A stretch of 47,023 nt of DNA from a virus. Lineage: Duplodnaviria > Caudoviricetes. The DNA lies in the IMG/VR virus record IMGVR_UViG_3300037515_000068, positions 1 to 47,023 of that record; one strand, given 5' to 3'. The notes below the pieces were generated by a model. It did not search any database and was not told the DNA's origin. It saw only the letters and a list, made by a program, of their open reading frames with translations. Every line of letters begins with the position of its first letter. Position 1 is the stretch's first letter. Shown here in pieces: positions 29,540 to 47,023 of this stretch. A program made the translations under genes and the position numbers.

Positions 29540-29647
29540 AATATAACCCCTTGAATCTGCTGGATGCGCCTATTTTAATAGTCTCGCACGATTGTGTCGA
29601 TTTATTTAAAAATTAACCATGCGGTGCATATCATTCGTTATGCCCCG

Positions 29648-29827
29648 TCACAGTGATTTAACATCCTGCACGACCGTTACCGCATAGCCAAGCGCCTTGA
29701 TCGCCTTGATCGCGGCATCCGTCAGTGTTGTGGTTCCGGCGATGGCGCAAAATAATTCAGCTTTGTCGCAAGCCGGGAAAATCCGTTGGTTCCCGAACTG
29801 GCTCACAATCCGCACTTTAATTTCCAT
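29648..29827 (-). CDS. Small phage protein in cassette 1
   Basis: MEIKVRIVSQFGNQRIFPACDKAELF..; AAGGTG RBS. Confidence 0.7.
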   Translation of the reverse strand: MEIKVRIVSQFGNQRIFPACDKAELFCAIAGTTTLTDAAIKAIKALGYAVTVVQDVKSL

Positions 29828-29869
29828 GATGTTCACCTTTTAAGTTATTAAGCTTGCCTACTGGTTCGC

Positions 29870-29899
29870 ATAATACAGGCGACGTATTGATCGTGTCAA
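29870..29899 (-). promoter_or_regulatory. Sigma70 promoter inside cassette 1
   Basis: Minus strand TTGACA-18-TATTAT. Confidence 0.6.
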
Positions 29900-29934
29900 G
29901 CGTTATTTTCAAAAGGTAAAAACCGCAGCGTAGG

Positions 29935-30002
29935 GCATAACCGTCGCTTCGAGAGGGACTGGACGAAAAGCGCCGTCCAGCCCCTCAAGCTAATCGTTGT
30001 GC
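29935..30002 (+). repeat. attC site
   Basis: GCATAAC-CGTCG-CTTCGAGAGGGACTGGACG..CGTCCAGCCCCTCAAG-CTAATC-GTTGTGC imperfect hairpin with extrahelical bases. Confidence 0.85.
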
Positions 30003-30268
30003 CACACGTCGATGGCGAAGACCTCAACCGGGTCTTTCCCAAAGTGCGGGTGTGTTATCACCTTCACCGTGTATCCCTTCCACGGCAGCACAAGCCGGCG
30101 CGTGGTGTCGTCTCGCCTCGGGTATCCGTATTTCAGTACAACCGAGTCGTATTTCTTCCCGATCAACTTCTTGCGCCAGTAGTCATTCACAAGCCGGTAT
30201 TCCTCGGGTTTGGTGCCCGCCTTGATCTGGTCGAAATACTCGCCCTTCAAATTCAAAACCAAGTCCAT
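29990..30268 (-). CDS. ASCH/PUA-like domain protein in cassette 2
   Basis: LNLKGEYFDQIKAGTKPEEYR..YW..YGYP; stop lies inside the attC. Confidence 0.8.
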   Translation of the reverse strand: MDLVLNLKGEYFDQIKAGTKPEEYRLVNDYWRKKLIGKKYDSVVLKYGYPRRDDTTRRLVLPWKGYTVKVITHPHFGKDPVEVFAIDVWHND

Positions 30269-30289
30269 TTCTCTCTCCGTTTGGCAGGG

Positions 30290-30353
30290 GCACAACACAT
30301 CATCCGAGCGGGACCGCGCAAAAGCGCGCGGCCCCTCAATTCAGCCGTTAGGC
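30290..30353 (+). repeat. attC site
   Basis: GCACAAC..ATCCGAGCGGGACCGCGC-AAAA-GCGCGCGGCCCCTCAAT..GTTAGGC. Confidence 0.85.
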
Positions 30354-30521
30354 ACTCTTTCGTTTGTACTGCGAAACGTGGGCATTTTTGCAATTGATGC
30401 AAAAATTAAGTGTGGAAGTACCGCATGACCACGCAACATAATCATTATGCCTGTCGCAATCCGTTTTCTTGCACTCCTTACCCGTTCTTGGTTTCGGGTA
30501 AAACTTGTCATAGTTTTCCAT
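30348..30521 (-). CDS. 57-aa Cys-rich protein in cassette 3
   Basis: MENYDKFYPKPRTGKECKKTDC...FCINCKNAH..KSA*; GGAG RBS; TAA lies within the attC core. Confidence 0.6.
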   Translation of the reverse strand: MENYDKFYPKPRTGKECKKTDCDRHNDYVAWSCGTSTLNFCINCKNAHVSQYKRKSA

Positions 30522-30537
30522 GTTTTCTCCAGTGCGG

Positions 30538-30601
30538 GCCTAACCCGTCAATCCAGCGGGACAGGCCAAAAGCGGCCTGCCCCTGATTTCATGCGTTAGA
30601 G
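30538..30601 (+). repeat. attC site
   Basis: GCCTAAC-CCGTC-AATCCAGCGGGACAGGCC..GGCCTGCCCCTGATT-TCATGC-GTTAGAG, aadA-type layout. Confidence 0.9.
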
Positions 30602-30607
30602 GTTCTT

Positions 30608-30829
30608 ATGTCAAAGTTCATATCTAATCTCCTTTACTCGTTGAAAAGCGAAAATGCCAAGCGCCGAGAAATGGAGAAAGCATTCGCCTCTGTTGACGCA
30701 TCGTCTCAAGACGATCCGAATCAATTTACACAAAACGATTGGCATAATCGGCCACTTGGCGTTATTGCTCTTGGCATTATTGCCTCTTTGTTGGCTTGGG
30801 CTGTTTTGCATCATTACGGCCTCGCCTAG
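30608..30829 (+). CDS. Small membrane protein in cassette 4 (canonical cassette orientation)
   Basis: ATG just after the core site, with GAGG RBS overlapping it; C-terminal TM helix. Confidence 0.6.
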   Translation: MSKFISNLLYSLKSENAKRREMEKAFASVDASSQDDPNQFTQNDWHNRPLGVIALGIIASLLAWAVLHHYGLA

Positions 30830-30893
30830 TGCAAAGGTATGCAACTACCGTAGCTCCGATAAACATTGAAAACCATAGCCCCATGTCACAGAC

Positions 30894-30953
30894 CTCTAAC
30901 CCGTCAATCAACCCGGACTCGCCTTCGGCGAGCCGGTTATTTCTGCGTTGGCC
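30894..30953 (+). repeat. attC site
   Basis: CTCTAAC-CCGTC-AATCAACCCGGACTCGCC-TTC-GGCGAGCCGGTTATT-TCTGC-GTTGGCC. Confidence 0.9.
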
Positions 30954-31423
30954 GTCACAGGTTCCCATGCGCTACGCTCCACCGGCTCAACCCACAGTCG
31001 CAGTTTCTGCGAGTGCTTGCCGCACCACAGGCATTCGCGGTGTTCGCCATTCGTCCGCCAGCGCGCGTCGTCGCCGACGAAGTGCATCTTGTGCGCCGGG
31101 TCAATGGCGCAGCGCCCTACGGCGGTGTAGCGTGGCCAAAAGTCCGCAATCTCTACCAGCGGACCGAGCCCGACCCAGCAGGCATGCTCTGCCTTCGTTC
31201 CATTGCACAGCACCTGCATCAGCCGCGCTCCGAAAAGGTCTCCGTTGTCCAGCATCCCAATCCACAGCGCGCCGGCCCTGTCAGAAAAAACCCGGCTCGT
31301 CCAAGCGTGGTGCTTCCGGCTGCGCATCGTCAGCCACTTGTGCAGGTTCGGGCTGTACTTCGCGCTCTTGCTTGGGTGTATCGCGGCCACGTCAAGGCCG
31401 TTCGCTTCTACTGCCAGTGTCAT
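30908..31423 (-). CDS. Hypothetical Cys/His/Trp-rich protein in cassette 5
   Basis: GGAG RBS; CAIDPAH..ECLWCG; reads through into the attC. Confidence 0.7.
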   Translation of the reverse strand: MTLAVEANGLDVAAIHPSKSAKYSPNLHKWLTMRSRKHHAWTSRVFSDRAGALWIGMLDNGDLFGARLMQVLCNGTKAEHACWVGLGPLVEIADFWPRYTAVGRCAIDPAHKMHFVGDDARWRTNGEHRECLWCGKHSQKLRLWVEPVERSAWEPVTANAEITGSPKASPG

Positions 31424-31445
31424 TTGTCGTCTCCAGTAAAGTGCC

Positions 31446-31516
31446 GGCCAACAACCGCATCGAGCGGGACCGTGCGCGATGAGGCCGCGCCCGGCCCCTC
31501 ATGCGGAGCGTTATTC
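31446..31516 (+). repeat. attC site
   Basis: GGCCAAC-AACC-GCATCGAGCGGGACCG..CGGCCCCTCATGC-GGAGC-GTTATTC. Confidence 0.85.
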
Positions 31517-36370: not shown

Positions 36371-36496
36371 TTAGCCGTTGCCGTAGCCGTCGCCGTAGCC
36401 GTCGCCGTAGCCGTCGCCGTAGCCGTAGCCGTAGCCGTCGCCGTAGCCGTAGCCGTAGCCGTCGCCGTCGCCGTCAAGCGTTAGAGTAGTTTCCAT
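36371..36496 (-). CDS. 41-aa Gly-Asp/Tyr repeat peptide
   Basis: METTLTLDGDGDGYGYGYGDG...NG*; overlaps the end of the upstream gene. Confidence 0.65.
   Translation of the reverse strand: METTLTLDGDGDGYGYGYGDGYGYGYGDGYGDGYGDGYGNG
36374..36475. repeat. Hexamer tandem repeat GCCGT(A/C/T) x17
   Basis: Direct reading of the sequence. Confidence 0.95.
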
Positions 36497-38694: not shown

Positions 38695-39418
38695 AATTCG
38701 CTCTATCAAGCCTGACTTCTGGACTGACGAGAAGATCGTAGAGCTTTCCGCTTTCTCGCGCCTGCTGTTCATTGGCCTGTGGAACTTTGCTGACGACGAT
38801 GGGCGCATGGTGTACTCGCCCAAGAAAATCAAGATGCAGATATTCCCCGCCGATACTCTGGATATTTCGGAGTTATTCGGGGAAATTCGGCGGGAATCGC
38901 TGGTTGATATTTATGTCGTTGATGGTGTTGAATATTTGCAGGTAAAGAATTTTGCACAGCACCAGAAGATCGACAAGCGGACAGCATCGAAACTACCAGA
39001 AAATTCCGACTCACCTCCGAATTCCGCCGAATCCCACCGAATCCCAACTACGGAATGGAAGGGAAGGGAAGAGGAAAAGGAAGGGAATGGAATAAAAGCT
39101 ATAGCAACCGGCAAGCCGGTTTGCCCACATCAGGAAATCATCGCCCTATACCACGAGATTCTGCCGTCTTGCCCTGCAATCCGCGACTGGACTACAGCAA
39201 GGGCGGCAGCATTGAAGGCTCGATGGAACGAGGATGCCGAACGGCAATCGCTGGAATACTGGCGACGGCTGTTCGAGTACATCGCCGCGATTCCGTTCCT
39301 GACTGGCAAGGTTTCCAGCTCTGGACGCAAGCCGTTCGTGCTGTCGCTGGACTGGCTGGTGAAGGCCGATAACTTCGCCAAGGTGCGCGAAGGACGCTAC
39401 GAGGATTCCGCAGCATGA
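38687..39418 (+). CDS. Replication initiator protein
   Basis: MARIRSIKPDFWTDEK..LLFIGLWNFADDDGR; C-terminal LDWLVKADNFAKVREGRY. Confidence 0.85.
   Translation: MARIRSIKPDFWTDEKIVELSAFSRLLFIGLWNFADDDGRMVYSPKKIKMQIFPADTLDISELFGEIRRESLVDIYVVDGVEYLQVKNFAQHQKIDKRTASKLPENSDSPPNSAESHRIPTTEWKGREEEKEGNGIKAIATGKPVCPHQEIIALYHEILPSCPAIRDWTTARAAALKARWNEDAERQSLEYWRRLFEYIAAIPFLTGKVSSSGRKPFVLSLDWLVKADNFAKVREGRYEDSAA
38861..39046. other. Putative replication origin (iterons within the initiator gene)
   Basis: 10-bp-period repeats ending TTCGG (38861-38890) and inverted CCGAAT(T/C)C.. x3 (39017-39046) flanking an AT-richer stretch. Confidence 0.55.
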
Positions 39419-40751
39419 GCGACCTATCCGAAAACTTCACTGTCCCGCACAGCACTGACGCAGAGCAATCCGTACTCGGTGGACTGCTGATCGACAACAA
39501 CGCGATTGAGCGCATGGGCGACTTGGAAGAGTCGGCGTTCTACACCGAATCGCACCGCCTGATTTACCGCGCCATCCGCAAGCAAGCTGCTTCCGGCAAG
39601 TCGTGGGATGTCATCACCGTGGCGGAAATGCTCGAATCGGTGAAGCGCTTGGATGCTGTCGGTGGGTTGCCGTACATCGGTAGTCTTGCGCAAAACGTGC
39701 CGTCGGCCGCAAACATTCGCCGCTATGCCGAGATCGTCCGCGAGCATGCCATGCGCCGAGAGATTATGGCCGCCGCTGCCGAACTATCCGAACTGGTCGC
39801 CGCCAATGGAGATGTCGCGGTGGCGATGGACAAAGCGCAATCCCGCCTGATGGCGATTACCGAAGGCGTGCAGACGGACGAGCCGCGCCACATTGCCGAG
39901 ATCGTGACAAGCGGCTTGAAGGCAGCACAAAGGGAATTCCTACCGGCCTGATTGAACTCGATGCAATCCTGAACGGAGGCTGGCATCGCGGGCAGGTGAT
40001 CGTGATGGCGGCAAGGCCTAGCATGGGTAAAACCGCGCTATCGCTGCACAACGCCACGTATGCGGCGCAGCATGGCTACGGCGTGCTGTATCTGAGCATG
40101 GAAATGAAGGATAGCGAACTGGCTGATCGGGCGATTGCCTCGTTGGGTCGTGTCAACCTTGGCAGCATCCTCACAGGTGACATGAAAAGCGAACAATGGG
40201 ATGGAATCACACATGCAGTCGGCAAGGTGCAGGACATCGCGCTGCATGTGCTCGACAAGTCCGGACTGAGCTTCTACCAAGTGGCTACATTCTCGCGCCG
40301 CCACAAGCGCAAGCACGGGCTGGATGTGCTGGTGGTTGACTACTTGCAACTGATGTCCGGAGCGGATGACGAGAAGCGCCACGCTCAGATTGAGGAAATC
40401 ACCCGCAACCTGAAATCTCTGGCGAAGGAGTTGGATATTGCGGTGCTGCTGTTGAGCCAGTTGTCACGTAAGACCGAAGAAAGCCGCCGCCCGAAGTTGT
40501 CGCACCTTCGCGACTCCGGTTCCATCGAACAGGATGCGGATGTTGTGCTGTTCATCCACCGCGAGGAAGTTGACAACCCGGAAACGCAATGGAAGAACTA
40601 CGCGGACATTCATATCGCGAAGAACCGCCAGGGTGCGTTAGGGCGGGTAGGGGCGACGTACATCGGGCATCAGGTGCGCTTCGATAACTTCACCGGCACG
40701 CCGCCGAACTGGGACGAAAAGCCCGCACAAAAACCGAGAGGATACCCGTAA
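39415..40751 (+). pseudogene. dnaB: DnaB-like replicative helicase, frameshifted near 39905
   Basis: N-domain PHSTDAEQSVLGGLL in one frame; KRLEGSTKGIPTGLIELDAILNGGWHRGQVIVMAARPSMGKT, VVDYLQL, LRDSGSIEQDAD in the -1 frame. Confidence 0.85.
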
Positions 40752-43025: not shown

Positions 43026-43772
43026 ATGCGAGTTGATGACGAAGTATTAGCTGTGTTGAGCCGTGCTGAAACTAGCGGGTTTGAATTGAAGCTGACAGGG
43101 CAGCTTGACCGCAAGCTATACGAGCGCACGAACAAAGTGCTGGAAGCTGCGGGCGGGAAGTGGAACCGAAAAGCTAAGGCGCACGTTTTTGAATCTGAGG
43201 CTTTTGACAGAATTGACCAGATCATTTTGTCCGGTGAGGTTGAGATACCAAAGGACGAATTTAACTATTTTCCTTCCCCGCCTGCTGTTGTAGCGCGGCT
43301 TATGGAGCTTGCTGGAATTTCGCCTGGGATGCAGGTTTTAGAGCCAAGCGCGGGGCGCGGGGCTATTGCGGTAGCTTGCGCCGAGCAAGGCGCCGATGTT
43401 GACTGCGTGGAACTGATGGAAGTCAACTACAACGCGCTATGCGCGGATGACAGGCTTAAGCGCGTGAAACATGGCTGCTTCCTTGAGCATGGCGTGATTG
43501 AGGCTTACGACCGCATCGTGATGAACCCACCTTTTGCAAAACAGGCCGACATCAAGCACGTAACCCACGCGCTGAAATTCTTGAAGCCGGGTGGTAAGCT
43601 AGTTTCGGTAATGGCGTCAAGCGTTGGATTCCGCGAAAACAGGCTTACCAACGAATTCCGCGATTTGATTGCAGAGCGAGGCGGACGAATTGAAGCACTG
43701 CCAGAGGGCGCATTCAAAGAATCTGGCACGATGGTTCGGACGGTGATCGTTGAGATACCGGCTGCAATTTGA
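43026..43772 (+). CDS. SAM-dependent N6-adenine-type methyltransferase
   Basis: VLEPSAGRGAI, MNPPF, LKPGGKLV, FKESGT. Confidence 0.88.
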   Translation: MRVDDEVLAVLSRAETSGFELKLTGQLDRKLYERTNKVLEAAGGKWNRKAKAHVFESEAFDRIDQIILSGEVEIPKDEFNYFPSPPAVVARLMELAGISPGMQVLEPSAGRGAIAVACAEQGADVDCVELMEVNYNALCADDRLKRVKHGCFLEHGVIEAYDRIVMNPPFAKQADIKHVTHALKFLKPGGKLVSVMASSVGFRENRLTNEFRDLIAERGGRIEALPEGAFKESGTMVRTVIVEIPAAI

Positions 43773-43787
43773 TTTGGAGGTATTGCG

Positions 43788-43886
43788 GTGAGCCAAACCA
43801 TCATCATCACCCAGCAAAGCCAGCAGAACGCACTGACTCGCATTTCCAACCTGCCGACAGATGGCAGCGTTGAGATTGTTGTATGA
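43788..43886 (+). pseudogene. Truncated NinB-like N-terminal fragment
   Basis: GGAGG RBS; MSQTIIITQQSQQNALTRISNLPTDGSVEIVV*. Confidence 0.4.
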
Positions 43887-44320
43887 GCGCGTGGACAATT
43901 AACAGCGAATCATCGCTACAATCCGCTATTGGTGACGTGCGAGAGTTGTACCGTGTACACAAGTACGTAAAGCTATCCGCCAAGACAGGTAAGGCGCGTA
44001 GCTTGGATCAAAATGCAATAAGCCATAGTTGGTACGAGCAACTTGCCCGCGAACTTCGGGAGGATGATGCGGTAGGCTGGAAATCCTACTGCAAGCTGCA
44101 TCACGGCGTTCCGATACTTCGAGCAGAGGATGTAGAATTTCGCGAGTTTTACGATACATCTATGCTGCGCACGATGAGCTATGAGCAAAAGCTTGCGGCG
44201 ATGAAGTTTGTACCTGTGACTAGCATAATGACGAAGCCGCAGTTGAGTAAATATCTTGAATCGATGCAAATCGATTTCGATAAGCGTGGTGTATATTTAA
44301 AATTTCCAGAATTGGAGTAA
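43883..44320 (+). CDS. ninB: NinB-like protein
   Basis: RSLDQNAISHSWY..WKSYCK..TSIMTKPQLSKYLE. Confidence 0.7.
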   Translation: MSAWTINSESSLQSAIGDVRELYRVHKYVKLSAKTGKARSLDQNAISHSWYEQLARELREDDAVGWKSYCKLHHGVPILRAEDVEFREFYDTSMLRTMSYEQKLAAMKFVPVTSIMTKPQLSKYLESMQIDFDKRGVYLKFPELE

Positions 44321-44399
44321 AAAATGATTCGTAAAACTCGCCAGAGGAAAAAAAAGACCTTTATATTTAGTCAATAATCTTGCTGAAATTCACAGAGGC

Positions 44400-44819
44400 A
44401 TGAAGAGATCCGAAGAAACAAGGAAGAAAATTTCTGATTCCATGAAAGGGAACCAGAAATGGCTAGGAAAAAAACATTCAGAAGAAACAAAGATTCTTAT
44501 ATCAAAAGCCAAAGCCGGCAAAGATAATTTGAAAGCAAGGAAGCCGATAAAAGCTAATAAAGTTGGCTGTAGCGATTATATATATTTCAGTGGATTGCTA
44601 GAGGCATCTAAAGCATTGGGTATCGGAGCATCAGGGATTTCTATGTGTTGCACAGGCAAGAAATCATCCGCTAGAGGGTATGAGTTTAGATTTACGAGCG
44701 CGCAGGAATTAGGCGTTATTTTTTACGTGCACAACGTAGAGTTCAGCGGGACTCCGGCAGCATCATCGCCGGAGGCTCCGCTGGAACGCCGGGTTGGGCC
44801 TGGCGCACAGGAGGATTGA
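44400..44819 (+). CDS. NUMOD3/NUMOD1-type DNA-binding protein lacking a nuclease domain
   Basis: KRSEETRKKISDS, GKKHSEETK, FSGLLEASKALG..ISMCCTGK..ARGYEF; C-terminus encoded by the attC. Confidence 0.7.
   Translation: MKRSEETRKKISDSMKGNQKWLGKKHSEETKILISKAKAGKDNLKARKPIKANKVGCSDYIYFSGLLEASKALGIGASGISMCCTGKKSSARGYEFRFTSAQELGVIFYVHNVEFSGTPAASSPEAPLERRVGPGAQED
44729..44799 (-). repeat. attC site
   Basis: Minus strand GCCCAAC-CCGGC-GTTCCAGCGG..CCGCTGAAC-TCTAC-GTTGTGC. Confidence 0.88.
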
Positions 44820-44822
44820 GAT

Positions 44823-45020
44823 ATGCAAACAGCGAAAGAGCGAGAAGAAGCGTTTCGCCGCGACCTGGCGGAACTGCTGGCAAAGCACAAGGCTGAACTG
44901 AACATCACCGACGACGGCAGGAGCTACGGAATGCACAGCGGCGTTGCCGAGGTGACGATGATGGGCGAGTGGGACGCGGAAGGGAATCCGACCGCCGACT
45001 ACACGGAGTTTCGGATATGA
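44823..45020 (+). CDS. Hypothetical protein in a cassette
   Basis: GGAGG RBS; fills the cassette. Confidence 0.65.
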   Translation: MQTAKEREEAFRRDLAELLAKHKAELNITDDGRSYGMHSGVAEVTMMGEWDAEGNPTADYTEFRI

Positions 45021-45021
45021 G

Positions 45022-45084
45022 GCCCAACGCCTGAATTAACGCGCCGCCGCTTTTGGCGGTCGAGCCTTGAACGCCGTGTTATGC
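45022..45084 (-). repeat. attC site
   Basis: Minus strand GCATAAC-ACGGC-GTTCAAGGC..ACCGCCAAAAGCGGCGG..GTTAATT-CAGGC-GTTGGGC. Confidence 0.8.
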
Positions 45085-45105
45085 GGCTATTTACAGGAGG
45101 ATGAG

Positions 45106-45381
45106 ATGGTTGATCTTTCAAGGCAGGAAATGACCGGGACGCTGTACGTGTTTGGCGTTCCGGTTTTGAGTGGGCTGTACGCATCGAATGCGGAGGACGC
45201 GATGACATGGCGAAATCGCGTGCCTCCGCTGCTGCGCTGGGCGTGCCGGTTTAGCTGGTTCATGACCTGGACGACGAAAGAGGAATACCGGGACGCGACC
45301 GGCGCGGTGAGGCGGCGAGACAGCCTGCCGCATAACGAAAAATTAACCAGCGGTGCGCACACTGCACCCAAAACGGAGTAG
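45106..45381 (+). CDS. Hypothetical protein in a cassette, reading into the attC
   Basis: AGGAGG RBS (MVDLSRQEM...). Confidence 0.6.
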   Translation: MVDLSRQEMTGTLYVFGVPVLSGLYASNAEDAMTWRNRVPPLLRWACRFSWFMTWTTKEEYRDATGAVRRRDSLPHNEKLTSGAHTAPKTE

Positions 45382-45452
45382 AGAATATGGAACACACTGA
45401 GGACGTAAACAAGGCCGCTGGCGCACCGTCTGAGTTGAATGCCGGGTTAGGC
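45330..45452 (-). repeat. Long attC site (123 bp)
   Basis: Plus-strand GCATAAC..CGGTGCGC..long loop..GCGCACCG..GTTAGGC. Confidence 0.75.
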
Positions 45453-45476
45453 ATTCTAACCACGGAGAGGTGAACG

Positions 45477-45710
45477 ATGATAAAAAACAAAATAATTGAG
45501 CAGCAGGTTATTTTTGAATCTGCGACAGGTAAAAAGGCGCGCAACGTCTATCTCGGCAGGGAAGACATGAAAGACCTTTTGAAATGGGCGCAACTGAACG
45601 GCTACATCATGGACGCTGGCTCGGCGAACATCGAAGGTTTGGACAGGCCTGTGGTAAGAGGATTGAAATGTTTTGAGGTGAACGCGGACAGGCATATTGA
45701 ATGTGCCTAG
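45477..45710 (+). CDS. Hypothetical protein in a cassette
   Basis: GAGGTG RBS; stop inside the attC heptamer. Confidence 0.65.
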   Translation: MIKNKIIEQQVIFESATGKKARNVYLGREDMKDLLKWAQLNGYIMDAGSANIEGLDRPVVRGLKCFEVNADRHIECA

Positions 45711-45772
45711 CGCCTAGCTAACCGGCGCAGGCGGCTTCATCGCCTGCGTCCGGGTTGAGCGACGTGTTATGC
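45705..45772 (-). repeat. attC site with mutated crossover triplet (GTT to GCT)
   Basis: Minus strand GCATAAC-ACGTC-GCTCAACCCGGACGCAGGCG..CGCCTGCGCCGGTTAGC-TAGGC-GCTAGGC. Confidence 0.8.
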
Positions 45773-45813
45773 CGCCGTGCCGCCAGAACCGTTTTTTAAC
45801 CAAGGAGCAAACC

Positions 45814-46095
45814 ATGAACCTGAAATACCGCAAGAAGCCCGTAGTGATCGAAGCGTTTTGTTTGGACGGCGGCGCAATGCCGGAGTGGTTCTTGGACGCA
45901 CGAAGCGCGGGAACCGTGAGGACGTATGCCGAGGGCACTGGCAACCCGTTCGATGACCCGCTGACGCACGCCGAGATTGACACGCTTGAAGGAACGCACA
46001 GAGCGAACCGGGGAGACTGGATCATTCGCGGGATCAAGGGGGAACTGTACCCATGCAAGCCGGACATCTTCGCAGCGACGTATGAAGCGGCATAA
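45814..46095 (+). CDS. Conserved phage protein (KYRKKPVVIEA family) in a cassette
   Basis: IDTLEG..GDWIIRGIKGELYPCKPDIFAATYE; TAA inside GCATAAC. Confidence 0.85.
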   Translation: MNLKYRKKPVVIEAFCLDGGAMPEWFLDARSAGTVRTYAEGTGNPFDDPLTHAEIDTLEGTHRANRGDWIIRGIKGELYPCKPDIFAATYEAA

Positions 46096-46170
46096 CGAGT
46101 AGTTAACTCGGCTGCGCATCGCGCAGTCCGGTGGAGCGAAGCGGAACGAAAGTTAAACGTAGCGCCCTAA
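46090..46170 (-). repeat. Terminal attC with degenerate inverse core
   Basis: Minus strand GTTTAAC..CTGCGC-GAT-GCGCAG..GTTAAC-TACTC-GTTATGC; the expected AAC of the inverse core is absent. Confidence 0.6.
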
Positions 46171-46172
46171 AA

Positions 46173-46361
46173 ATGCCAGAAAGTACACCAGTTTTGATTT
46201 GCCGCGAATGCAAGCAAGCAGTAATCGGCCCGACTGATGGTGATCGCAAGATGGCTAAACAGGGGTATCGTTCCTGTGCTATGGCTGCAACTCCAGCCGA
46301 AAAAGCGCGGTATCATTCCGGCGGGCAGCAATGTAAATATCCGGGGAGGGTAAAGAAGTGA
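46173..46361 (+). CDS. Small Cys-rich protein
   Basis: MPESTPVLICREC..MAKQGYRSC..QQC. Confidence 0.55.
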   Translation: MPESTPVLICRECKQAVIGPTDGDRKMAKQGYRSCAMAATPAEKARYHSGGQQCKYPGRVKK

Positions 46362-46633
46362 GTACACTACACTTACACTTACGATTTGAGTATTTCGATG
46401 CCATAGCGGAAGGCCGTAAATATAAAGAATACCGCGATGCGTCGAAGTGGCAAAAGAAACTGGACAGCGAAAAATATAAATTTATCAGGCTTTATAGGGG
46501 GTTTGAAAAAGTGGCAGACGATACGATTTTGGACATGCCGTACCGTGGCTACGAACTCGAAACAATCGTGCATCCTCATTTCGGGAACGTGGAGAAATTG
46601 GTTTGCGCTATTCATGTCACGCCACAAAAATGA
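46358..46633 (+). CDS. Second ASCH/PUA-like protein
   Basis: LHLRFEYFDAIAEGRKYKEYR..HPHFG. Confidence 0.75.
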   Translation: MSTLHLHLRFEYFDAIAEGRKYKEYRDASKWQKKLDSEKYKFIRLYRGFEKVADDTILDMPYRGYELETIVHPHFGNVEKLVCAIHVTPQK

Positions 46634-47023
46634 CCCAATCAGAGCATAAAGAGCCGAAGCCGAAAAAGTGCAATGCTCCTAACTGCGGGAAGATGTTCGT
46701 CCCTACTAAGCCATTGCAGCAAGTGTGCGATTTCGGATGCGCTATCGAGCTTAACCTGCACAACAGAGCCAAGAAAGAGGCTAAGGAAGCTACTAGGAAG
46801 CGCGTAGAGCATCGAGAGGCGAAGGCGAAGCTAAAGAGCCGCGGCGACTGGATGCGCGAGGCTCAGATCGCCATAAACGCATACCGGCGCGAACTCACGA
46901 AGTCGGACGGGTGTATATCCTGCGGGACGATGAACGGGAAAATGAACGGCGGCCATTATCGCAGCGTCGGATCAAGCCCGGAGACACGGTTCGAAGAACT
47001 CAATATCTGGTGTCAATGCGAAC
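46630..47023 (+). CDS. ninG: NinG/Rap-like nuclease, N-terminal part (continues at base 1)
   Basis: PKKC..C..F.P.KPLQQVC..CA..CISCG..GGHYRSVGSSPETRFEELNIWCQC. Confidence 0.88.
   Translation, partial: MTQSEHKEPKPKKCNAPNCGKMFVPTKPLQQVCDFGCAIELNLHNRAKKEAKEATRKRVEHREAKAKLKSRGDWMREAQIAINAYRRELTKSDGCISCGTMNGKMNGGHYRSVGSSPETRFEELNIWCQCE

What the first reader, a model, noticed from the sequence alone, without database searches (positions are those of the whole stretch)
44729..46170. Second independent cassette array in the nin region, in opposite orientation
Seen: five more attC-like sites (63-123 bp, diverse sequences) bound four single-gene cassettes with complementary ends. Here the attC top strand is the minus strand. 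The cargo includes the KYRKKPVVIEA family, a typical phage gene rather than typical integron cargo. Inference: two arrays in both early arms argue for a recurring mechanism, not one accidental capture, and suggest phage genes themselves are packaged as cassettes.
Basis: partly seen in the sequence, partly recalled or inferred. Interest (0 to 1): 0.85.

Follow-up and report, generated by a model that had tools for sequence, protein, structure and literature searches.

The report
Reversed integron cassettes of phage genes
This phage keeps four small early genes in integron-type gene cassettes that face the opposite way to those of bacteria; one cassette recurs as the same unit in three other contigs, and related phages encode their own integron integrase, so phages likely use this system to swap their own genes.

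Summary
The array is real. A model built only from bacterial attC sites scores four hairpins (44729-45772) at 34.5-56.3 bits, all on the minus strand. The fifth site is a broken attC (8.4 bits), and the fourth has a mutated cut triplet. The four genes lie antisense to their attC, with 8-10 bp complementary cassette ends. Cassette 1 recurs as the same unit in three other contigs, cut at AA|C with new neighbours, and the hairpin upstream of the gene travels with it. Across fetched loci, genes were inverted in 277 of 402 viral cassettes (21 canonical) against 8 of 177 bacterial (84 canonical). This phage has no integrase. Related phages encode a distinct IntI lineage behind a conserved attI-like site, ending arrays of the same reversed type. 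One attC-plus-leader shell holds three unrelated genes, a lead on how cassettes arise. Phage attC clusters are published (Qi 2023); the two tested are canonical. This scan noted reversed phage arrays before, on other DNA. Recombination is inferred, not shown. Verdict: new variant of a known kind.

The parts
44729..44799 (-). S1, intact attC (top strand minus); belongs to cassette 1; inferred crossover 44734|44735
   Evidence: 56.3 bits; folding z -5.0 on the plus (bottom) strand; pfold 0.86; travels with gene 1 in L475, L477, L480
44823..45020 (+). Cassette 1 gene, 65 aa, no family; cassette spans 44735-45027 (293 bp)
   Evidence: 81 homologues; viral clusters
45022..45084 (-). S2, attC of cassette 2, folds poorly
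   Evidence: 34.5 bits; z 0.3; pfold 0.00025
45106..45381 (+). Cassette 2 gene, 91 aa, reads through the crossover into S3; cassette spans 45028-45335 (308 bp)
   Evidence: three homologues diverge at or right after the PHN/PQN/PHS codons; no family
45330..45452 (-). S3, long attC of cassette 3; holds a ribosome-binding motif and a start codon (28-codon ORF 45387-45473)
   Evidence: 43.3 bits; 82-88% identical sites in L163 and L131 have the same internal start
45477..45710 (+). Cassette 3 gene, 77 aa, no family; cassette spans 45336-45710 (375 bp)
   Evidence: 96% identical over 45435-45712 in unrelated phage L082, ending at the crossover
45705..45772 (-). S4, attC of cassette 4; cut triplet mutated (AAC to AGC), so likely not cleavable
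   Evidence: 41.9 bits; near-identical sites with AAC in many phage loci, among them intI-bearing L371 and L394
45814..46095 (+). Cassette 4 gene, 93 aa, KYRKKPVVIEA / PGDYG-like family, function unknown; cassette spans 45711-46095 (385 bp)
   Evidence: phrog_419 E 2e-29; Atlas 'PGDYG protein' 0.95, recognition value low; cassette form also in L017 and L143
46090..46170 (-). S5, broken attC that ends the array: R' and L' half intact, extra G changed, R'' box gone
   Evidence: 8.4 bits, not significant; 87% identical to an intact site in L163
43883..44320 (+). NinB-like gene, upstream landmark
   Evidence: phrog_7283 E 4e-43
44400..44819 (+). NUMOD3 homing-endonuclease fragment whose frame runs through S1
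   Evidence: PF07460
46173..46633 (+). Two genes after S5 without att sites (62 aa; 91 aa phrog_625), followed by NinG from 46630
   Evidence: no model hit here
29610..31516 (+). First array, mirror image: five attC (29935, 30290, 30538, 30894, 31446; top strand plus) and an attI-like end site at about 29610-29643; genes on minus except 30608-30829
   Evidence: 28-49 bits; end site shared with L082 and L143
38687..39418 (+). Replication initiator gene with short repeats, between the two arrays; likely origin
   Evidence: PHROG replication initiation; repeats at 39017-39049; skew changes sign near 38 kb

Best explanation
This is an integrase-less array of four integron cassettes whose genes lie antisense to their attC sites, likely built by an IntI integrase supplied from outside this genome, most likely by related prophages that encode one or else by the host's integron. 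Shown: each unit runs from an AA|C point through the hairpin, a short leader and the gene to the next AA|C, and such units change neighbours between genomes at that point. Inferred: IntI cuts the folded bottom strand, which here is the coding strand, excises the unit as a circle and inserts it at an attI or another att site. Because the genes are reversed, the phage's early transcript would read the whole array and no integron Pc promoter is needed. If replication runs both ways from the origin between the arms, the bottom strands of both arrays sit on lagging templates, the orientation that raises excision. In this genome cassette 1 and perhaps 2 look excisable; cassettes 3 and 4 are likely locked by the damage to S4 and S5. 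Gene functions are unknown; by analogy with the methyltransferase and base-modification cargo of related arrays they are likely host-adaptation accessory genes.
For: Independent bacterial attC model fits S1-S4 on one strand only. Same cassette 1 unit in L475, L477, L480: conservation starts at AAC of S1 and stops just after AAC of S2. In 9 of 9 homologous cassette pairs with different flanks, the upstream hairpin is more alike than the downstream one (a tenth pair had identical context). Orientation: 277 inverted, 21 canonical, 104 unclear of 402 viral cassettes; 8, 84, 85 of 177 genome cassettes. No TIGR02249 match in this genome. L103 and L154 IntI pass the TIGR02249 cut-off. 71 viral loci encode relatives; in the 64 searched, 172 of 174 attC hits lie on the strand opposite intI, and 30 of 32 loci with cassettes are mostly inverted. 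G697 is a complete phage (terminase, portal, capsid, repressor) with intI at the end of such an array. S4-like sites occur in intI-bearing arrays. 115 of 301 genomes of a plausible host order encode an IntI-like protein (the count includes unpublished G299 and G031). Lagging-template effect: PMC5371416, passages.
Against: No recombination was observed: no joint at any att site in four runs (contigs drop rare forms). S5 is broken, S4's triplet is mutated and S2 folds poorly (pfold 0.00025 against a bacterial median of 0.57). The host is unknown, so the source of IntI is not shown. S5 does not match the phage attI consensus. The origin and bidirectional replication are inferred; the skew follows transcription as well. 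The pattern that drew the viral and genome sets was designed on phage sites, the ORF caller is a simple script with many unclear calls, and loci overlap and are related, so the counts are not independent events.
Confidence: 0.8

Rival explanations
1. The array is a fossil: cassettes were built by IntI in another phage, taken over as a block by homologous recombination, and are no longer shuffled here.
For: S4 triplet mutated, S5 broken, S2 weak. No integrase. No joints at att sites. The phage encodes a Sak4-like annealing protein (weak hit). Half-decayed cassettes occur elsewhere (L042, L082, L472). An ordinary gene next door is skipped in another run without att sites.
Against: S1 and 4 of 5 sites of the first array fold well (pfold 0.27-0.86). 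Each cassette here has neighbours seen in no fetched relative. Viral attC sites as a class keep good folding (median pfold 0.28, n 399). This rival concerns present activity, not how the units were made.
Confidence: 0.13
2. The hairpins are repeated linkers that promote gene exchange by homologous recombination, like the mobile regulatory cassettes described for T4-type phages.
For: Near-identical hairpins precede unrelated genes in many phages. Such cassettes are reported in PMC2839356 (search listing only).
Against: Exchange points fall at AAC, not inside the repeats. The ends are complementary across the gene. The five sites here are too unlike each other for the repeat finder to pair more than about 21 nt.
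Confidence: 0.04
3. The hairpins work only as RNA signals (terminators or RNase III sites) between early genes.
For: They lie between co-transcribed genes, and S1 and S4 fold better than shuffles.
Against: No terminator pattern on the sense strand in 43700-47023. No Rfam match here. Strand-specific fit to a bacterial attC model. RNA signals would not explain complementary ends across genes. A secondary RNA role is not excluded.
Confidence: 0.02
4. These are bacterial integron cassettes that were captured and inserted backwards by top-strand recombination.
For: Top-strand recombination inverts cassettes (PMC5027507, passages). One cassette of the first array is of canonical type. Qi 2023 shows capture of bacterial arrays (PMC9892861).
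Against: Such inversion turns gene and attC together, whereas here each gene is reversed against its own attC and all attC sites point one way. Only 1 of 272 viral inverted cassette proteins had a homologue among 84 bacterial cassette proteins. The cassette 1 family was found in 0 of 401 genomes.
Confidence: 0.01

Closest known systems
CALINs and integrons in phage genomes (Qi et al. 2023, PMC9892861; read parts 1-4 of 7 and part 1 of 2 of the supplement)
   Same: Clusters of attC sites without an integrase in phages; small cargo genes, methyltransferases among them; phage attC shown there to recombine with IntI1.
   Different: The two published cases I tested are canonical: TJE1 has attC top strand and genes both on plus, M16-3 likewise follows the bacterial layout. 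Here genes are antisense to attC, there are two mirror-image arrays in the early arms, and cargo is phage-type. The text I read does not describe reversed genes or a phage IntI lineage; its figures and Dryad file were not seen.
Classical integrons: IntI, attI, attC cassettes (Cury 2016 PMC4889954, Nivina 2016 PMC5027507, Loot 2017 PMC5371416; passages)
   Same: attC anatomy (R and L boxes, extra base), crossover in the AAC triplet, complementary cassette ends; in intI-bearing phages intI and attC keep the usual relative orientation.
   Different: Genes run toward intI on the bottom strand and would be read from a phage promoter at the far end, not from Pc. Bottom strands are predicted on lagging templates, whereas 25 of 30 sedentary integrons have them on leading templates. 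This genome has no intI.
Inverted-integrase integrons (Treponema and others; Cury 2016, passage)
   Same: Cassette genes and intI are transcribed in the same direction.
   Different: There intI is turned relative to attC. In the phages intI and attC are in the usual geometry and the genes are turned.
Cassette insertion at attG sites, SALINs (Loot et al., bioRxiv 10.1101/2022.09.11.507474; passages)
   Same: IntI can place cassettes outside an integron, which could seed an array in a phage without intI.
   Different: Many viral arrays end at a recurring attI-like family, not at random GWT sites; attG insertion does not explain reversed genes.

Membership tests
attC site (S1-S4) | R'' and R' boxes with L''/L' pairing and an extra base on one arm; fit to an attC covariance model | tested here: met
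   34.5-56.3 bits with a model built from 36 bacterial sites. The IntegronFinder model itself was not available.
attC site (S1-S4) | Intact AAC cut triplet in R' | tested here: inconclusive
   Met for S1-S3; not met for S4 (AGC), whose relatives have AAC.
attC site (S5) | Complete hairpin with R'' box and extra base | tested here: not met
   8.4 bits, E 2.6; intact homologue in L163 shows what was lost.
attC site | Bottom strand folds into the recombinogenic form | tested here: inconclusive
   Computed pfold S1 0.86, S3 0.093, S4 0.036, S2 0.00025 (own constraint scheme).
attC site | Recombined by IntI, bottom strand preferred | not testable with these tools
   Needs the conjugation assay.
Integron gene cassette | Complementary R boxes across the unit | tested here: met
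   4 of 4.
Integron gene cassette | Same unit in other contexts with ends at the crossover | tested here: met
   Cassette 1 in 3 contigs; cassette 3, right end; cassette 2 by protein ends; cassette 4 family in L017 and L143.
Canonical integron cassette | Gene on the top strand, upstream of its attC | tested here: not met
   All four genes are on the bottom strand and follow their own attC.
CALIN | Two or more clustered attC sites and no intI | tested here: met
   Four sites within 1.1 kb; no TIGR02249 match in a record rated complete.
Complete integron | intI gene beside the array | tested here: not met
   met in related phages.
Complete integron | attI at the end of the array | tested here: inconclusive
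   This array ends at broken attC S5; the first array ends at an attI-like site shared with L082 and L143.
Complete integron | Pc promoter driving the cassettes from attI | not tested
   Genes point toward the attI end, so Pc could not drive them; promoter scan at chance level.
Intrinsic terminator | GC-rich stem followed by a T run on the sense strand | tested here: not met
   None on the plus strand in 43700-47023.

The most novel reading that the evidence does not exclude
Phages of Betaproteobacteria run an integron of their own: a dedicated IntI lineage with its own attI at the end of the early operon, a pool of reversed cassettes kept apart from the bacterial pool, and satellite arrays such as this one in phages without intI. 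New cassettes are made by loading phage genes into a reused attC-plus-leader shell, which gives a testable handle on cassette genesis.
Probability: 0.5. Interest if true: 0.87.

Novelty: new variant of a known kind. Interest (0 to 1): 0.7.

Why it matters
Integrons are known as bacterial tools, recently as stores of anti-phage genes. If phages use the same chemistry in reverse layout to swap accessory early genes (methyltransferases and base-modification enzymes are common cargo in related arrays), this is a site-specific route to phage mosaicism and the counterpart of bacterial defence cassettes. Reversed genes would be silent behind a bacterial Pc promoter, which could keep the two pools apart. 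How cassettes arise had 'no reliable model' in 2016 (PMC4792948, passage); one shell holding three unrelated genes, and gene families seen both inside and outside cassettes, make that question approachable. It also explains odd protein ends in phage annotation, where frames run into hairpins.

Tried and rejected
A first hand-made attC scan had no power (6 hits against 0-6 in shuffles) and was replaced by the model and a profile scan with 0 hits in 20 shuffles; that scan misses S2 and one site of the first array. Rfam: no relevant match. Annotated phages: only gene 4 family pieces, no record covering the array. No viral locus for cassette 2. No Pfam family for any of the four genes, PHROG only for gene 4; no structure was predicted. 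Sequencing runs: no RNA holder listed; no joint at att sites, which is no evidence of inactivity. S5 as phage-type attI: rejected, it is a broken attC. Direction of gain or loss of att sites: unresolved on a 65-column tree (33 rows, near-duplicate and partial loci among the 43 left out). The careful IntI tree did not finish; quick and FastTree trees are reported. Terminase searches with PF03237 and phrog_2 rang in only 1 of 5 intI phages; ORF scans then showed virion genes in the two examined. PMC13323075 and PMC13366799 (passages) hold nothing on phage cassette orientation. Seven literature searches found no paper on reversed phage cassettes or a phage IntI lineage; most subscription journals and bioRxiv supplements are outside the library.

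Full report
Context. The window is a whole 47,023-base virus record, rated complete. It has terminase, portal, capsid and ejection genes, a replication initiator and DnaB helicase near 39-41 kb, and NinB and NinG around the finding. Early genes diverge from about 38 kb. No integron integrase or other match to TIGR02249 was found, while the same search rang in 14 of 14 control genomes.

Observation. I drew a half-site pattern from phage sites and scanned bacterial genomes with it. From 24 of those loci I took 36 full attC sites and built a covariance model. In the window it gives nine significant hits: S1-S4 on the minus strand (56.3, 34.5, 43.3, 41.9 bits) and five sites of the first array on the plus strand (28-49 bits); the next hit is 10.6 bits. 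The strand call is anchored by intI-bearing bacterial loci, where the pattern always lay on the intI strand. S5 scores 8.4 bits. An 87% identical site in L163 is a full attC, so S5 is a broken one. S4's cut triplet reads AGC. Cassette ends are complementary across the gene over 9, 10, 8 and 10 bp, and 4/4 in the variable bases in 4 of 4 cassettes against a background of 0.10 each. Units run 293, 308, 375 and 385 bp from AA|C to AA|C.

Which hairpin belongs to which gene. Complementary ends alone do not tell orientation, so I mapped boundaries. Cassette 1 occurs in L475, L477 and L480: conservation begins at the AAC of S1, covers the hairpin, leader and gene, and stops one base after the AAC of S2. 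Cassette 3 is 96% identical in unrelated phage L082 from the right arm of S3 to the crossover in S4. Three of seven cassette 2 homologues diverge at or right after the crossover codon; the others end or diverge elsewhere. In 9 of 9 homologous cassette pairs with different flanks the upstream hairpin is the more conserved. So each gene follows its own attC on the bottom strand, the reverse of a bacterial cassette.

How general. At pattern matches, the adjacent ORF was inverted in 84, canonical in 8 and unclear in 18 of 110 viral sites; in genomes 33, 76 and 56 of 165, and 2, 20 and 7 where intI lay in the locus. Between detected site pairs: 277, 21 and 104 of 402 viral cassettes; 8, 84 and 85 of 177 genome cassettes. 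By locus majority, 92 of 103 viral loci are inverted and 24 of 29 genome loci canonical. Arrays are not the rule in this region: 4 of 45 NinB relatives had attC hits within 6 kb.

Cargo. Gene 4 is phrog_419. Only 1 of its 80 best viral loci has attC hits (L017); L143 is a second cassette form. It was found in 4 of 301 genomes, none with attC nearby. The gene 1 family has cassette forms among close relatives and att-free forms among distant ones, and was found in 0 of 401 genomes. Of 90 inverted viral cassette proteins drawn at random from 272, 33 hit PHROGs, with seven DNA methyltransferases, two Mom-like proteins, a queuine tRNA-ribosyltransferase and a PAPS reductase. Of 84 bacterial cassette proteins 17 hit, six of them acetyltransferases. 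One of 272 had a homologue among the 84. The pools look largely separate, on a small bacterial sample.

The integrase. Two pattern loci encode an IntI over the TIGR02249 cut-off. A scan with one of them gave 71 viral loci. Upstream of intI most of the 54 printed show a conserved site, RYYYAAC then TTAAATTC and a short inverted repeat, at which the last phage gene ends; a strict pattern finds it for 29 of 52 viral integrases. In 64 of the 71 loci searched, 172 of 174 attC hits are on the strand opposite intI, and 30 of 32 loci with cassettes are mostly inverted. G697 (direct terminal repeats) and G696 carry virion genes with the array and intI in an early arm; G696 has a separate phage integrase. 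In a quick tree 44 of 52 viral IntIs group with support 99. After adding the closest copies from a 301-genome search and dropping six long-branch rows and one unpublished genome, 33 bacterial and 3 viral rows fall on one side (support 93). On the other side are 44 viral rows, one genome copy with the phage-type attI (L523, likely a prophage) and one artefactual long-branch row. The viral set was drawn by likeness to L103, so the clade is partly by design, but the bacterial rows were drawn the same way. Sites 85-97% identical to S4 occur in intI-bearing arrays L371 and L394, which ties this array to that pool. IntI-like genes are also common in plausible hosts: 115 of 301 genomes (two unpublished genomes are in the count).

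Mechanism. From the literature, IntI cuts the folded bottom strand in the AAC of R' (PMC5027507, passages), and excision is higher when that strand is the lagging template (PMC5371416, passages). Here the bottom strand is the coding strand in both arrays. Inferred: the early transcript reads the arrays without Pc, and forks leaving an origin near 39 kb expose both bottom strands. Computed folding suggests S1 is a good substrate (0.86), S3 and S4 moderate, S2 poor. With S4's triplet and S5 damaged, cassettes 3 and 4 are likely fixed. No excision joint was seen in four runs kept as contigs.

A lead on cassette origin. The S1 hairpin and its leader are 90-97% identical in L084 and L088, where they precede unrelated genes of 59 and 85 aa, and all three units end in the same 10 bases. 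Nine of those bases are the complement of the start, so selection may explain the shared tail; the shared hairpin and leader point to reuse of a shell. S4-type sites likewise precede many unrelated genes.

Known and new. Phage attC clusters and their recombination by IntI1 are published (PMC9892861). TJE1 and M16-3 from that paper are canonical by my model. Seven searches found no paper on reversed phage cassettes or a phage IntI lineage. Earlier notes of this scan describe reversed integrase-less arrays in other phages; I had reached that reading before seeing them and count them as leads only. A word search for a phage IntI clade among the notes found none holding all words, though one note mentions relatives with a recombinase in Bacteroidota phages.

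Verdict. A real, partly decayed CALIN of reversed cassettes; it works like an integron array, is not a complete integron and not a canonical cassette array. New variant of a known kind; interest 0.7, mostly for the phage IntI lineage and the handle on cassette genesis.

Noticed in passing
L103:991-2022, L154:6146-7255, L355-L425: Phage-encoded integron integrases with a conserved attI-like site, placed as the last gene of reversed cassette arrays; in L154 the phage integrase follows closely.
   Followed up: yes
window 29610-29643; L082:5229-5260; L143:165-200: A second attI-like end site (AAC, 5 bases, ATAT(A/G)CACC) shared by three unrelated integrase-less arrays.
   Followed up: partly
window 30608-30829: One cassette of the first array is canonical: gene on the top strand, 73 aa with a hydrophobic C-terminus; possibly a captured bacterial cassette.
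   Followed up: no
window 29990-30268 and 46358-46633: The same family (phrog_625) occurs twice, once inside a cassette and once without att sites; the att-free copy is skipped in run X2.
   Followed up: partly
window 45387-45473; L163:2892-3017; L131: The 123-nt attC type contains a ribosome-binding motif and start codon, so translation can begin inside the recombination site.
   Followed up: partly
L403: A viral contig whose IntI groups with bacterial ones yet has inverted cassettes: a possible second origin of the reversed layout.
   Followed up: no
L523 (G216:C13): A bacterial genome with a phage-lineage IntI, phage-type attI and phage-like cassettes, besides two other IntI copies; likely a prophage that could supply IntI in trans.
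   Followed up: partly
L288: A Thiobacillus contig with mostly inverted cassettes and a site and leader 78% like S2; possibly a prophage piece.
   Followed up: no
L143:1-2200: An array that starts directly after a Cro-like gene (label from my reading of the sequence, no call).
   Followed up: no
L214:7268-12559: A bacterial array with many very short, near-periodic cassettes about 296 bp apart.
   Followed up: no
L522:3260-4255 (G696): Reverse transcriptase next to a tail gene in an intI-bearing phage, suggestive of a diversity-generating retroelement.
   Followed up: no
window 39415-40751: DnaB helicase appears as two ORFs (N-terminal 178 aa, C-terminal 251 aa).
   Followed up: no
window 36380-36480: Low-complexity tandem repeat at the end of the 36481-36987 gene; it attracts unrelated contigs in read laying.
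   Followed up: no
window 44400-44819: NUMOD3 fragment without a nuclease domain directly upstream of S1; its frame runs through the hairpin.
   Followed up: no
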